Positions 9,160-19,469 of a stretch of 64,000 bases of DNA are shown here, piece by piece; positions within the stretch are counted from its first letter, which is position 1; each line of letters opens with the position of its first letter. A program made the position numbers and the translations under genes. The notes under the pieces were generated by a model. It was given only the letters and a program-made list of their open reading frames with translations, made no database searches and was not told where the DNA came from. Source of the DNA: the human T2T-CHM13v2.0 reference genome, Homo sapiens; assembly GCF_009914755.1 (NCBI RefSeq), contig NC_060926.1, one strand, 5' to 3'.

Positions 9160-15795
<6,636 letters not shown>

Positions 15796-15840
15796 AGGCA
15801 GGAGGGTAAGGTCCCAGCCAAGTTCTTTCCTCTACACTGC

Positions 15841-16402
15841 TGTTAGAAATGCTTGTTCCCCAGTGCCACGAAGAAACAGCACTCAAACATAAATTTAATT
15901 TTCTCAGCAAGGCAATTTTTACTTCTATAGAAGAGTGTAACTCGCGAATGGAGTAATGGCAACAGCACACCTGGACAGGGAAGGGCAAGGAGTTCTTATT
16001 CCTGAGGCAGGTAGCCCCTACTGCTGTGTTGTTTCCCTATTGGCTAGGGTTGGACCGCACAGTCTAAGCTAATTCCAACTGGCTATTTTAAAGAGAGCAA
16101 AGGTATGAGCCAGAGTGGCAGGGTGAGTAGTGTGGCAGGAAGGACGGTTAGGAACAGGTAACTAAAGGTGACTTAGGTCACAGCAGGTGACCAGGATGAG
16201 TCAGGATGGAGCAGGTGACCAGGGGAACAGATGTGAACTACTGATTAGGACTCGCGAGAAAGTTGTTTACTGAAACTAGAAGCAAAGGGGTGAAGAGAAC
16301 CAGGAAGTTAAACTTTAAAATGGAGAATCAAAGAATAAGAGAACTGAACATACTGACATACTGATTCTTTGAAGAGAAACTTGGGGTCTACTATATTTAA
16401 CA
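15841..16402 (-). mobile_element. 3' LTR of class I ERV, LTR10 family (LTR10F/A-like)
   Basis: On - strand it starts TGTTAAATATAG and ends TTTCTAACA. It is preceded by a polypurine tract (AAGAAGGGGGAT, about 16403-16414) directly after the env stop. Contains CCAAT, ATTAAA and an AP-1 repeat. Family assigned from recalled consensus. Confidence 0.8.
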
Positions 16403-16420
16403 ATCCCCCTTCTTGAATTT

Positions 16421-18360
16421 TTATAGTTCTTTCTCTTCAAACTTCCTTAACATGTCTTGGCTTAGCTGTTCTGTTTGATTCTCTAAAAGAAAAAGCTTCT
16501 CTGAATAAGGTGGAGGAGAATTAAGGGAGGTTTTAGTAAGTGCTGCCTGTATGAGTTTGTACACCAGCCCACAGATGCATGGTATGACACAACACCCAAC
16601 AAGAATGAGTACACCTACTACGGCTGCGAGAGAAGTAAGAATCGAGGCTATGATTCCTTTCCATTTACCAAACCATTTTTCTAGCCACCTTGTAAAGGGA
16701 TCATTTACCCCTGGGTTTTTGGCTAACTCACTAGACAGAGCGGTTAGACCTTGCAATGCCTTTGTTATACGTCCATCAGGGGCGGTGGTGTTTGGGATGA
16801 AGGTACAACCTTGAGTTTTAATCATGACGCAAACTCCTCTTTCTGCTAATACCATGTCTAAGGCTCTTCTATTTTCCCAAGCCATCTGGCTAGTAGCCCC
16901 TAATCGCTCACCTATTCCTTTAACAGCATCTCTAATGTAGTTAATAAACCGCTGTTGGTTGTAATAAATGTAATTTACCTAATCTATGTTCTTATTAATT
17001 GTCACCCATCAAAATATTGACTTAAATTCTGCAGCTATTTGATCTCGGGCTTTAAATTCATCTGGTACTCCTCGTGGAGGTCTAATAGCATTTATATAAA
17101 CATGGGAGTCAAAGGACCCATGTGAGGCACTTCTTTTTTTTACGCTTTTCTCTTTTTTTTTTTCTTCGTGTTGACGGAATGCTAGGGTAAAAGGGATGGC
17201 CAGTTGGACTAGGGCACAAGTGCTGCTCTAATTACTTGGCAGAGCAGAGTACCCAGCAATAGTTCCTTGCAATACCACCACACATCTGCTTGGAGATGAA
17301 CAAGGGCAGACTGATTGGTAAGCTCTTGAAAAGGCTTGGTTTCACTGCACCCTGTTAAGTCTTCAAGGAATGCTAACTCCCCCCCCACCCCCCGCAGAGA
17401 AAGGCACGAGGTGAAGTTAACATCAGGGGCTGGTGGCAGCATGGCCCTCGGGGGCTGACCCACAGGGCTCTTAACCTCAGTGAACCGCAGAGAAAGAGTC
17501 TTGCATGACTCATCGCCCCAGGCTGTGGGGTTGTGGAAGAGAGCTACCATACAGCTCATGCCCAGTCCATGAGAGGACCACCCAACTGGAAAGCGGACAA
17601 GCTGGGTCTCTGGCCTGCCTGTCGCATAAGAGTTAACAGTCGCTTTTGTTAAGCGTGCGAACAGAATATTTAATCCATTCCAGCCAAGCATTTGCGTCCT
17701 GATACTCTGTTTCAGTTGCTACAGTTTGTTTTAAATCTTTAACCTCTACAACTACTTTGGTTTCATCATTGGGTAGATAACAAGAGGTTTGGTTAGCAGA
17801 GAAGTTAGGAGAGGGAGAAGGGGGTGCAGGAGGTGACAAGGCAATGAAGTGCATTTCAAAGGATCCTGAGACTTCTGCTCCTATGCCATAGAAGAACTCT
17901 GGGGAGCAGGGATGGTCATCTGTCCTCAGTTACATTGGTCTAGCTGACAATGGGGAGGGGTAACTCCTTTAGTAAAATGAATATATGGTTTTAAGAAACT
18001 GCAAGTACTAGTTGGGGCAGCCGATCCTTGCTCTTTAATATTTTATAGAGCATTGGACCAACTTTGGCAGAGAAGCTCTGCTCTAGGAGGACAAGATTTC
18101 CAGTTTATACTGGAATCTTCGTCAAACTCTTCTCAAACTAATTTATCCCAGTTAACAGATTTTTAGTCTGCAGAGCGCTAGGAAGGATAAAGATACTTTC
18201 CTGAAGTGGAGAGTTGCCTCTGACTTGGCAAGTCTCCATAGGGTATAACAAGGCAAGCATCAAATGTAATAGTTTGAGGCAAAATTGACTTGGTTACATT
18301 AATAACTAGGTGGTCAGCAATAGAGCGAGGAAAGAAGTCATAATCAAATGGATGAAAGAG
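16421..18360 (-). pseudogene. Disrupted ERV env (HERV-I/HERVIP10-like)
   Basis: ORF pieces give GVPDEFKARDQIAA, YIYYNQQRFINY, ISD-like WENRRALDMVLAERG, a degenerate CX6CC and a TM anchor. In-frame stops at 16979-16981 and 17009-17011, plus frameshifts. Confidence 0.9.
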
Positions 18361-18362
18361 AG

Positions 18363-18557
18363 TTAAATTTTTCTTAGCTTTAGTTTGGTAGGGTTTTCCC
18401 CTGGGACCGTGGCCCATGACTCTGGAGGGGGTGGCACTTTCCTGACTCGGGTGTGATGGGTCAATCCTTTTTCTGCTGTCCAGACTGCAGTTTCAGTAGT
18501 TAGGATCACTAGGTAAGGTCCTTCCCAGGCCGGTTCGAGCTTTTACTTCTCTCCAAC
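18363..18557 (-). pseudogene. ERV pol 3' end (integrase C-terminal GPY/F region)
   Basis: Minus-strand translation KLEPAWEGPYLVILTTETAVWTAEKGLTHHTRVRKVPPPPESWATVPGENPTKLKLRKI*. Confidence 0.85.
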
Positions 18558-18558
18558 T

Positions 18559-18603
18559 CGAGAGCTACTTCTTTGCAGCACCAGGGAACAAGCGTTTCTA
18601 ACA
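18559..18603 (+). mobile_element. 45-bp inverted copy of the LTR10 U5 terminus
   Basis: Reverse complement aligns without gaps to 15841-15885 at 35/45 positions. Ends TTTCTAACA and is followed by CTGC. Confidence 0.85.
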
Positions 18604-19469
18604 CTGCCCCCTTATAAAAGCCTCAAAATGCCTGTACAAGTCCATGACTTAGGGGTCTTAGGGGCTCCTTTGTGGAAGTTTCTCTGTTTGTTACCACCCC
18701 GCAGGCAAATAAACAGATTGGACGGAGCTTGGCCCCAAGGGCATCCAAGCTATTGGCCAATCCAGACCTTCTGACGTAGCCTAGAGTGAAAATCCAGACC
18801 AACAAGAACACCCTCTATTAAACAGTGACCAGCCAAACCATCAGATCATCTCTCTTGGGGCTTTAAAGAGACACAGACAGAGGGGGTTGTTATTGGCAGG
18901 AGGGTAAAAACGGAGACAGGAAGAGTCAGTAGTTGAGCTACCCTAATGAGTCTCCAGGCAAGTAAACTAGGTCATCAGGAACTCTGCTGATCTGATTCTC
19001 TCCTAAGCAGGGGAGCTTTCTGGGCAGTTGGGAGTAGAGGAGTAGAACAAAGTATAGCAGATGTTTCTCTTCTTTTCACTTTCTCCCCCCTCTTTTCCTT
19101 TTTCTTTTCTTACCAACCGCCCCCCCCCACCTTTTTTTTTCTTTTCTTTTTTTTTTTTCATCTACTCAGTGTCTGAATACCTCCCTATTTGAGAGACAGG
19201 GCCACAATTCCCACTGTGGAAGCTGAGAGGGTCAGGTACTTTCTGGCCTCACACCTTGGAAGCTGGAGCTTGGGCACATGATCCTGCTAGTGAACCAGAG
19301 ACTCAGAATCAATTGAGAAATAACTTACTGCTGCAGCATCAAATGTTAGCATGACAGCACGTAGTATGCAGTGGCCATGGTGCCAACAGCAGTGTGTTCA
19401 CCTGTCAGCACATAAAACTGCAAATCTACAGAAAAGTTGAAAGATTACAATGGATATAACCTTTACCTA

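What the first reader, a model, noticed from the sequence alone, without database searches (positions are those of the whole stretch)
15837..18607. Provirus with two U5 ends in inverted orientation inside a single 4-bp TSD
Seen: the 2.76-kb ERV remnant has a normal 3' LTR (15841-16402, -), env and the pol tail, then breaks off in integrase at about 18557. There it is fused to a 45-bp inverted copy of the same LTR's U5 terminus (18559-18603). The copies match 35/45 without gaps, and 7 of the 10 differences are explained by decay of ancestral CpGs. Both outer ends are therefore ...TTTCTAACA, and both are flanked by CTGC (15837-15840 and 18604-18607). Known: gammaretrovirus-like integrases make 4-bp TSDs and normally join one U3 end and one U5 end; in vitro, concerted integration can use ends from two separate donor DNAs. 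Inference: this looks like a germline fossil of a U5/U5 integration. Either two cDNAs each donated a U5 end and the internal ends were later joined with deletion, or a rearranged (fold-back or autointegrated) cDNA was integrated. The result resembles an element with terminal inverted repeats. A 4-bp match alone could be chance, but it sits exactly at both CA termini.
Basis: partly seen in the sequence, partly recalled or inferred. Interest (0 to 1): 0.8.

Follow-up and report, generated by a model that had tools for sequence, protein, structure and literature searches.

The report
Retrovirus fossil with two U5 ends
A 2.8-kb remnant of an ancient retrovirus in a human chromosome 2 intron ends on both sides with the same viral end sequence pointing outwards inside one 4-base duplication, which is best read as a fossil of the viral integrase inserting a misassembled DNA copy through two identical ends.

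Summary
The minus-strand element has a 562-bp 3' LTR (15841-16402), env, and the integrase C-terminus. Integrase homology stops at 18558. Then comes a 44-nt inverted copy of the LTR's own U5 terminus (18560-18603, 35/44; next best in the window 24/44). Both ends read ...TTTCTAACA and abut CTGC.

Supporting evidence:
- The family makes 4-bp duplications: 10 of 28 LTR loci against 2 of 140 control 4-mers.
- The two arms differ as much as the paired LTRs of sister proviruses, so the copy is about as old as the insertion.
- The junction is unique in the genome.
- A second locus on chromosome 4 is a 148-bp fold-back made only of two such U5 ends. It has a 5-bp duplication, and seven paralogous empty sites confirm it.

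Best reading (about 0.65): integrase inserted aberrant reverse-transcription DNA through two U5 ends.

Not excluded:
- a later complex deletion with a templated inverted patch;
- two insertions plus a deletion with a chance CTGC match.

The decisive test, an empty site in an outgroup primate, could not be run. Autointegration is not supported. Clear CpG decay accounts for 4, perhaps 5, of the 9 arm differences, not 7 of 10. This is a new variant of known defective-provirus formation, of moderate interest.

The parts
15837..15840 (.). Left copy of the 4-bp direct repeat CTGC (putative target-site duplication)
   Evidence: Read directly. It abuts the U5 terminus of the 3' LTR.
15841..16402 (-). 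Complete 3' LTR (562 bp), TGTT...AACA, LTR10/HERV-I type
   Evidence: 39 other scored genomic copies match at 78-88%, most over nearly the full length. The ends are shown.
15841..15884 (-). Left arm: the last 44 nt of the 3' LTR (U5 terminus, ends CA at 15841)
   Evidence: Arm of inverted repeat I1.
16169..16223 (-). Two 27-28-nt tandem units inside the LTR. The second holds TGAGTCA (AP-1-like).
   Evidence: Direct repeat family D2, spacing 28. LTR10A/F are described as carrying a 28-30-bp AP-1 repeat (PMC466953, passages).
16403..16414 (-). Purine-rich tract directly 5' of U3 (polypurine tract)
   Evidence: The minus strand reads aagaagggggat|TGTTAAAT (row L013).
16421..16978 (-). env transmembrane-subunit remnant (185-aa open stretch)
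   Evidence: ORF. Pfam TLV_coat E 8e-4, profile 439-559 of 560, below the curated cut-off.
16979..18362 (-). Decayed env surface-subunit and pol-env region with many stops
   Evidence: ORF fragments. Collinear with the contig 8 provirus, with one divergent stretch left unaligned.
18363..18558 (-). Integrase C-terminal remnant. Homology to other copies ends at 18556-18558.
   Evidence: Pfam MLVIN_C E 1.8e-5, profile 18-53 of 56. Alignments to L002-L010.
18559..18559 (.). Junction base between integrase and the inverted U5. It matches neither partner as they read now. One or two A residues of microhomology are possible.
   Evidence: U5 continues ...CTC AAA and integrase copies read ...TCAAA|AGTTGG, where the window has CTC G AGTTGG.
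18560..18603 (+). Right arm: 44-nt copy of the U5 terminus in the opposite orientation, ending CA at 18603
   Evidence: 35/44 to the left arm. 39/44 to the U5 end of copy L026 by my own count of the rows printed. 21/44 to the U3-start complement.
18604..18607 (.). Right copy of CTGC
   Evidence: Read directly.

Best explanation
This is a germline fossil of an aberrant integration by a HERV-I-type (LTR10) gammaretrovirus-like virus. The DNA that was inserted carried a U5 attachment end on both sides. One side was the normal U5 end of the 3' LTR. The other was a short inverted copy of the same U5 terminus, fused inside the integrase gene. The integrase joined both CA ends to host DNA four bases apart, which gave the single CTGC duplication.

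Shown: the anatomy, the family's 4-bp rule, the age of the copy and the uniqueness of the junction.

Inferred: that the fusion arose before integration. I cannot separate two routes.
(a) The growing minus-strand DNA had copied U3, env and part of integrase. It then switched template onto the 5' end of a minus-strand DNA, its own or the co-packaged genome's, and ran off at the U5 terminus. Second-strand synthesis then gave a duplex with two U5 ends.
(b) Two DNA molecules in one preintegration complex each gave a U5 end, and host end joining closed the inner ends.

About 6 kb is absent: the rest of pol, gag and the 5' LTR, measured on the contig 8 provirus.
For: - Inverted U5 arm of 35/44 placed exactly at the terminus, with CTGC on both sides.
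- A real breakpoint in integrase, seen against 9 other copies.
- Family duplication length is 4 bp. 10 of 28 LTR loci have an identical 4-mer on both sides, against 2 of 140 control 4-mers. The contig 8 provirus has CCAT on both sides.
- CTGC fits the CTVB consensus of XMRV, and 13 of 15 XMRV proviruses had 4-bp repeats (PMC2857682, passages).
- The arms differ at 9/44. LTR pairs of four proviruses differ by 11.0, 10.5, 14.9 and 8.0%, and by 7/44 and 7/50 in the terminal stretch. Nine differences are about 5 times likelier if the copy dates from integration than if it arose at a uniformly random later time.
- Both arms share one of at least four U5 end types seen in the family.
- An integrase complex needs only about 15 bp of an end (PMC12657518, passage).
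- Second locus L043 1501-1648 (contig 4): a 148-bp fold-back of two U5 ends, TGTTAG...CTAACA, flanked by TAAGG on both sides. Seven paralogous copies of the flanking repeat read straight through with one such 5-mer at that place (TAAGG once, TAAGA five times, AAAGA once). A 5-bp repeat was seen in 1 of 15 XMRV proviruses.
Against: - No empty site could be examined. Both flanks are single-copy here and no outgroup genome is held, so contiguity of the flanks rests on four bases (chance 1/256, somewhat more given target preference).
- LTR10-type insertions cluster. L025 holds three LTRs within 2.2 kb and L029 a nested pair, among 29 loci fetched. This raises the prior of a two-insertion origin.
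- The U5 end and the complement of the U3 start share their last 5 bases, TAACA. A later template-switch event could therefore land exactly on the old terminus.
- Only one further example was found, and its target shows an odd 6-nt identity with the element's end.
- The scan for more cases was incomplete.
- The Pfam matches are below their curated cut-offs.
Confidence: 0.65

Rival explanations
1. A normal provirus with CTGC duplications was rearranged later in the host genome by one replication-based event (template switching of the MMBIR/FoSTeS kind). The nascent strand left integrase at 18558 and copied 44 nt of the 3' LTR's U5 in reverse. It then switched back onto the outer end of the 5' LTR through the shared TAACA. 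This deleted about 6 kb and kept the flank.
For: - The U5 end and the complement of the U3 start share the terminal 5 bases, and 21/44 overall. A second switch there would reproduce the present sequence exactly.
- The inner junction has at most 1-2 nt of microhomology, as is usual for such events.
- This rival predicts the same final sequence as the best explanation.
Against: - The copied stretch must end exactly at the LTR boundary, and the return must hit one particular TAACA.
- Arm divergence of 9/44 favours an origin at or near integration by about 5 to 1.
- The contig 4 fold-back would need the same coincidences a second time.
Confidence: 0.12
2. There were two independent LTR10 insertions in opposite orientation a few kb apart. 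A later deletion ran from integrase of the minus-strand provirus to 44 nt before the end of a plus-strand LTR. The two CTGC copies belong to different duplications and match by chance.
For: - LTR10-type elements do cluster. L025 has three LTRs in 2.2 kb, including an outward-facing pair 1.4 kb apart that are two complete LTRs with 3/4 matching flanks.
- L029 is a nested pair.
Against: - It needs a 4/4 flank match (1/256).
- It needs the same U5 end type in both elements. Only 3 of the 28 other LTR loci carry that type, or 4 of 29 counting the window's own LTR.
- It needs a deletion that spares just a short terminal piece.
- For the contig 4 fold-back this model is excluded, because the paralogs show a duplication, not a deletion, of host sequence.
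Confidence: 0.08
3. An aberrant cDNA that already carried the inverted U5 piece was joined by integrase at one end only. Host repair attached the other end, helped by likeness between the viral CA end and the target, so the 4-bp repeat is partly a repair product.
For: - In the window the host bases just before the left CTGC read TCTACA, like the viral end TCTAACA.
- At the contig 4 locus the host bases just after the duplication read TGTTAG, identical to the element's first six bases. This is native sequence of the flanking repeat.
- One-ended integration completed by the host is reported for Rous sarcoma virus (cited in PMC12657518, passage).
Against: - The repeat lengths, 4 and 5 bp, are those of concerted gammaretroviral integration. 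Uncoordinated joining usually gives deletions or long duplications (same paper).
- The window likeness is weak: only ACA matches without a gap.
- No such likeness is seen beside the 10 LTR loci with matching 4-mer flanks.
Confidence: 0.07

Closest known systems
HTLV-1 type 2 defective proviruses (5' LTR lost before integration)
   Same: They lack the 5' LTR yet keep the integrase-length host repeat on both sides, so the defect arose before integration (PMC6950816, passage citing Miyazaki 2007; the primary paper is not held).
   Different: There the host repeat is said to abut internal pol or env sequence directly. Here a 44-nt inverted U5 attachment end lies between them, giving integrase a proper second end. 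Those are somatic deltaretrovirus cases; this is a germline gammaretrovirus-like fossil.
HIV-1 proviruses with asymmetric LTRs or aberrant strand transfer
   Same: They are integrated products of template-switch errors in reverse transcription that keep the terminal attachment sequences. 26 of 88 proviruses had asymmetric LTRs (PMC9278108, passages). Deletion junctions are ascribed to misplaced strand transfers (PMC12657518, passages).
   Different: Those keep one U3 and one U5 end in normal orientation. None of the passages I read describes an inverted U5 replacing the U3 end.
Concerted integration in vitro with two like ends or two donor molecules
   Same: [quoted passage not shown] That purified intasomes are routinely built from two U5 oligonucleotides is recalled, not checked.
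   Different: That is a test-tube reaction with short substrates. This would be its natural counterpart, fixed in a germ line.
Self-primed (fold-back) minus-strand strong-stop DNA
   Same: The contig 4 element has the form expected of such a product: about 81 nt of U5-side minus-strand sequence folded back at an AT-rich self-complementary site and copied to its own 5' end. The in vitro reaction itself is recalled from the HIV literature, not read here.
   Different: It is known as a dead-end product in vitro. An integrated copy with a host duplication did not turn up in my searches.
LINE-1 5' inversions by twin priming (recalled)
   Same: One insertion event, one target-site duplication, and the 5' part in inverted orientation.
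   Different: The enzyme and mechanism differ (target-primed reverse transcription). No attachment ends are involved.

Membership tests
LTR10 / HERV-I (HERVIP10) class I endogenous retrovirus | LTR bounded by TG...CA and repeated in the genome | tested here: met
   TGTT...AACA. 1249 first-look candidates, 40 scored, with the 39 other copies at 78-88% identity.
LTR10 / HERV-I (HERVIP10) class I endogenous retrovirus | 4-bp target-site duplication | tested here: met
   10 of 28 LTR loci against 2 of 140 control 4-mers. Contig 8 provirus has CCAT/CCAT.
LTR10 / HERV-I (HERVIP10) class I endogenous retrovirus | 28-30-bp AP-1-bearing tandem repeat in the LTR (LTR10A/F) | tested here: met
   Two units at 16169-16223 with TGAGTCA. 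Feature as described in PMC466953.
LTR10 / HERV-I (HERVIP10) class I endogenous retrovirus | Primer-binding site for tRNA-Ile | tested here: inconclusive
   The site is deleted at this locus. Sister proviruses read ...CTAACA ATT TGGTGGCCC after U5. That this is the tRNA-Ile site is recalled, not tested.
LTR10 / HERV-I (HERVIP10) class I endogenous retrovirus | Gammaretrovirus-type integrase and env | tested here: inconclusive
   MLVIN_C scores 24.7 bits (cut-off 29.2) and TLV_coat 18.7 bits (cut-off 22.5). These are decayed fragments.
LTR10 / HERV-I (HERVIP10) class I endogenous retrovirus | Dfam/RepeatMasker assignment to a named subfamily | not testable with these tools
No repeat library is on hand.
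Canonical provirus (U3 end plus U5 end) | 5' LTR, or at least a U3 terminus, at the 5' boundary | tested here: not met
   The 5' boundary matches U5 at 35/44 and the U3-start complement at only 21/44.
U5/U5 concerted integration product | Both termini are U5 ends ending in CA, facing outwards | tested here: met
U5/U5 concerted integration product | Host repeat of the family's length directly at both CA ends | tested here: met
   CTGC/CTGC. The family length is 4 bp.
U5/U5 concerted integration product | Flanks contiguous across one copy of the repeat in an empty site | not testable with these tools
   The flanks are single-copy and no outgroup genome is held. The feature is met at the analogous contig 4 locus.
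Autointegration product | Viral CA terminus joined to internal viral DNA | tested here: not met
   The internal junction is 44-45 nt inside U5, and both CA termini are joined to host DNA.
Mobilised non-autonomous element with terminal inverted repeats | Several genomic copies share the integrase-U5 junction | tested here: not met
   The junction 30-mer has 1 match in the genome at up to 3 mismatches. None of the 39 other scored matches passes the junction.
HTLV-1 type 2-like defective provirus | Host repeat abuts internal viral sequence directly | tested here: not met
   A 44-nt U5 end lies between integrase and the host repeat.

The most novel reading that the evidence does not exclude
The integrase of the HERV-I lineage repeatedly inserted fold-back or misjoined reverse-transcription products with two U5 ends into the primate germ line. 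This left a so far unannotated class of 'U5-U5' insertions. They range from a 148-bp strong-stop palindrome (contig 4) to this 2.8-kb truncated provirus. Such loci would be a fossil record of self-priming and end choice in an extinct virus. They would be one route to 5'-truncated proviruses that still carry a proper duplication.
Probability: 0.5. Interest if true: 0.7.

Novelty: new variant of a known kind. Interest (0 to 1): 0.55.

Why it matters
Retroviral integrases are taken to join one U3 end and one U5 end of one DNA. Use of two like ends is known from test-tube reactions.

A germline fossil, with a second independent one, would show three things:
- that this also happened in vivo;
- that 44 nt of one end was enough;
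- that errors of minus-strand synthesis can yield integrated, heritable DNA.

It also explains how a provirus can lack its 5' half and still have an intact duplication. Annotators would otherwise ascribe that to later deletion. It also gives a simple signature to search for in any genome: outward-facing U5 ends inside one duplication.

The element itself has no sign of function. It lies in an intron of LINC02576 and is decayed.

Tried and rejected
- Paralogous empty site for the window locus. Both flanks (15698-15840, 18604-18900) match only themselves in the genome. They have no significant partner in the window.
- Other copies of the junction: none.
- A gapped pattern to find outward-facing U5 pairs genome-wide was not accepted.
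- Instead I read the coordinates of U5-end pattern matches:
  - 100 listed of 406 for the window's end type;
  - 39 of 39 and 25 of 25 for two other types;
  - 100 of 147 for a fourth type.
- Outward-facing pairs within 10 kb were these:
  - the window locus;
  - contig 4 at 101.873 Mb (the fold-back);
  - contig 11 at 3.34 Mb, which proved to be two complete independent LTRs and was rejected as an example;
  - a cross-type pair on contig 4 at 101.51 Mb, not examined.
- Searching with the 148-bp fold-back found no second such palindrome among 40 scored of 450 candidates.
- An abutting inverted LTR pair on contig 9 (L029) is an ordinary nested insertion.
The frequency of such loci stays unknown.
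- Literature searches for a described provirus with inverted U5 ends found none. The library lacks most subscription journals, including the older retrovirology literature, and Miyazaki 2007 is not held.
- Rejected on the evidence:
  - Autointegration: the junction is not at a CA terminus.
  - Inverted duplication that includes the flank: the right flank is CTGC, not GCAG.
  - A U3 identity for the right arm.
Full report
**What is there**

On the minus strand, window 15837-18607 holds the 3' part of a class I endogenous retrovirus. Its parts are:
- a complete 562-bp LTR (15841-16402, TGTT...AACA);
- a purine-rich tract directly 5' of it;
- a 185-aa env transmembrane remnant (16421-16978; Pfam TLV_coat, E 8e-4);
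- decayed env and pol-env sequence;
- the C-terminal part of integrase (18363-18558; Pfam MLVIN_C, E 1.8e-5).

Both Pfam scores are below their curated cut-offs, as expected for fragments.

The LTR has 1249 first-look candidates in the genome. Forty were scored, and the 39 other copies match at 78-88%, most over nearly the full length. It carries two 27-28-nt tandem units with TGAGTCA. This fits the 28-30-bp AP-1 repeat described for LTR10A/F, the LTRs of HERV-I, which entered anthropoid genomes about 30 million years ago (PMC466953, passages). The subfamily name could not be checked against a repeat library.

**The observation**

The longest inverted repeat in 15500-19000 has arms 15841-15884 and 18560-18603, 35 of 44 complementary. 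The next best match of that 44-mer on either strand of the 64-kb window is 24/44. The binomial chance of 35/44 is about 5e-14. Read 5' to 3' on its own strand, each arm ends ...TTTCTAACA, and each abuts CTGC (15837-15840, 18604-18607).

The break in integrase is real. Eight of nine other genomic copies (L002-L010) align only up to window 18556-18558, and L009 only to 18542. Beyond that point all nine continue with ordinary integrase coding sequence, where the window has the inverted U5. The rest of the element is collinear with a full 8.7-kb provirus on contig 8. On that copy's scale about 6.0 kb is missing here: the rest of pol, gag and the 5' LTR.

The right arm is U5 and not the outer end of a 5' LTR. 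It matches U5 at 35/44 with a terminal identical run of 9. It matches the complement of the U3 start at 21/44 with a run of 5.

Of the nine arm differences:
- Four lie at two sites where 19 other LTR copies vary C/T and G/A. These are two ancestral CpGs that decayed to TG in one arm and CA in the other.
- One more may be CpG-related (3 of 19 copies keep C).
- Three are private to the right arm (0 of 19 copies).
- One is a minority state of the left arm (4 of 19).

So clear CpG decay covers four, perhaps five, of the differences, not seven.

**Does the family make 4-bp duplications?**

Yes. In 10 of 28 LTR loci the 4-mer before TGTT recurs directly after a terminal CA. Control 4-mers taken 10-30 nt further out do so in 2 of 140 trials. 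Several of the other 18 are LTRs of proviruses or differ at one base. The contig 8 provirus has CCAT on both sides.

For a modern gammaretrovirus, 13 of 15 proviruses had 4-bp repeats, one had 5 bp, and the target consensus was CTVB (PMC2857682, passages). CTGC fits that consensus.

**When did the inverted copy arise?**

The paired LTRs of four proviruses of the family differ by 11.0, 10.5, 14.9 and 8.0%. In the same terminal stretch they differ by 7/44 and 7/50. The two arms here differ by 9/44. With 15% as the full-age expectation, nine differences are about five times likelier if the arms date from integration than if the copy arose at a uniformly random later time. The copy is therefore old, about as old as the insertion.

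**Is it a family?**

No. The 30-mer across the integrase-U5 junction occurs once in the genome at up to three mismatches. None of the 39 other scored matches to 18480-18680 passes the junction.

**A second, independent case**

Among the listed U5-end pattern matches (100 of 406), one other outward-facing pair stood out, at contig 4 101,873,100-101,873,247 (L043 1501-1648).
- It is a 148-bp element made only of two inverted U5-side arms, TGTTAG...CTAACA. The left arm is about 81 nt. The right arm is the last 60 nt of the LTR plus a 9-nt insertion.
- It is flanked by TAAGG on both sides.
- The flanks belong to a dispersed repeat, which I take from memory to be a LINE-1 3' end.
- Seven paralogous copies read straight through with a single 5-mer at that place: TAAGG once, TAAGA five times and AAAGA once. 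This gives a clean empty site and a 5-bp duplication.

This has the form expected of a minus-strand strong-stop DNA that folded back on an AT-rich self-complementary stretch and copied itself to its 5' end. For this locus the two-insertions-plus-deletion model is excluded, because host sequence is duplicated, not lost. No second such palindrome appeared among 40 scored of 450 candidates.

**Explanation**

The simplest account of both loci is that integrase joined two U5 ends to host DNA in one concerted event. An integrase complex needs only about 15 bp of an end (PMC12657518, passage), and coordinated joining of two donor ends is known in vitro (PMC2857682).

How the two-U5 DNA arose is inference.
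- In the window, the plus strand reads like a minus-strand DNA that started normally at U5 and copied R, U3, env and part of integrase. It then continues as a copy of the first 44 nt of a minus-strand DNA, running off exactly at its 5' end. At most one or two A residues of microhomology lie at the switch.
- A template switch onto its own 5' end, or onto that of the co-packaged genome's strong-stop DNA, would give this.
- Two donor molecules with host end joining of the inner ends would also give it.

I cannot tell these apart. Autointegration does not fit, because it joins the CA terminus to internal DNA.

**Rivals**

(1) A later replication-based rearrangement of a normal provirus. The U5 end and the complement of the U3 start share TAACA. 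A strand that copied U5 backwards could therefore return to the old 5' LTR terminus and keep the flank. The final sequence would be identical to what is seen. Against it stand the exactness required, the age of the copy, and the need for the same accident at the contig 4 locus.

(2) Two insertions plus a deletion, with a chance CTGC match. Clustering of LTR10-type elements is real. L025 holds three LTRs in 2.2 kb, including an outward-facing pair that I first took for a third example. It proved to be two complete LTRs. L029 is a nested pair. This rival still needs a 1/256 flank match, the same U5 end type (3 of the 28 other LTR loci carry it), and a deletion that spares 44 nt.

(3) One-ended integration finished by host repair. 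This is prompted by an oddity. At contig 4 the host bases after the duplication read TGTTAG, the element's own first six bases, and this is native sequence of the flanking repeat. In the window the host bases before CTGC read TCTACA, like TCTAACA. The likeness in the window is weak. I leave this unexplained.

**Comparison with what is known**

The nearest described cases are:
- HTLV-1 type 2 defective proviruses, which lost the 5' LTR before integration yet keep the 6-bp repeat (PMC6950816, passage);
- HIV-1 proviruses with asymmetric LTRs or misplaced strand transfers (PMC9278108 and PMC12657518, passages).

Neither, in what I read, has an inverted U5 in place of the U3 end. Seven full-text searches found no description of such a provirus. 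The library lacks most subscription journals, so older work may exist.

**Limits**

- The decisive test, an outgroup empty site, could not be run.
- The survey for further cases was partial. 306 of 406 matches of the window's U5 type and 47 of 147 of another type were not listed.

**Verdict**

It is a new variant of known defective-provirus formation, of moderate interest, and the second locus raises that interest somewhat.

Noticed in passing
L043 1501-1648 (G000 contig 4: 101,873,100-101,873,247): A 148-bp fold-back made only of two inverted LTR10-type U5 ends, flanked by TAAGG on both sides. Seven paralogous copies of the surrounding repeat show an uninterrupted site with a single 5-mer there (TAAGG, TAAGA or AAAGA). 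The right arm carries a 9-nt insertion.
   Followed up: yes
L043 1649-1664, and window 15831-15840: The host sequence next to the duplication resembles the viral end. TGTTAG follows TAAGG at the contig 4 locus and is native to the flanking repeat. TCTACA precedes CTGC in the window, against the viral TCTAACA. This may be chance, target preference, or microhomology-aided joining.
   Followed up: partly
L025 648-2808 (G000 contig 11: about 3.3415-3.3437 Mb): Three LTR10-like LTRs lie within 2.2 kb: one complete on the minus strand (648-1212) and two on the plus strand (1501-2072, 2269-2808). This shows local clustering of insertions of this family.
   Followed up: partly
L029 1423-2510 (G000 contig 9: about 38.195 Mb): One LTR is nested in inverted orientation inside another at about base 56 of the host LTR. 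This is an ordinary nested insertion, not a U5/U5 element.
   Followed up: yes
G000 contig 4: 101,508,530 (minus) and 101,517,794 (plus): Outward-facing U5 ends of two different end types lie 9.3 kb apart. The sequence was not fetched, so it is unknown whether these are one element or two.
   Followed up: no
window 18604-18900: The single-copy right flank carries promoter-like motifs when read on the minus strand: a CRE-like site, two CCAAT boxes, and TATAAG ending a few bases from the insertion point. The retrovirus may have landed just downstream of an old promoter-like stretch. No annotation covers it.
   Followed up: no
window 19080-19200: A long pyrimidine-rich low-complexity run (C/T tracts ending in poly-T) lies about 500 bp to the right of the element.
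   Followed up: no
window 17780-18180 (element positions 428-832): The env surface-subunit region did not align to the contig 8 provirus at word size 11, while both sides did (79-82%). This is a divergent env segment between copies of the family.
   Followed up: no
listing (genome-wide): A common one-mismatch variant of the U5 end, ending ...TTTCAAACA, occurs at many sites. It is probably another subfamily or another repeat and was not examined.
   Followed up: no
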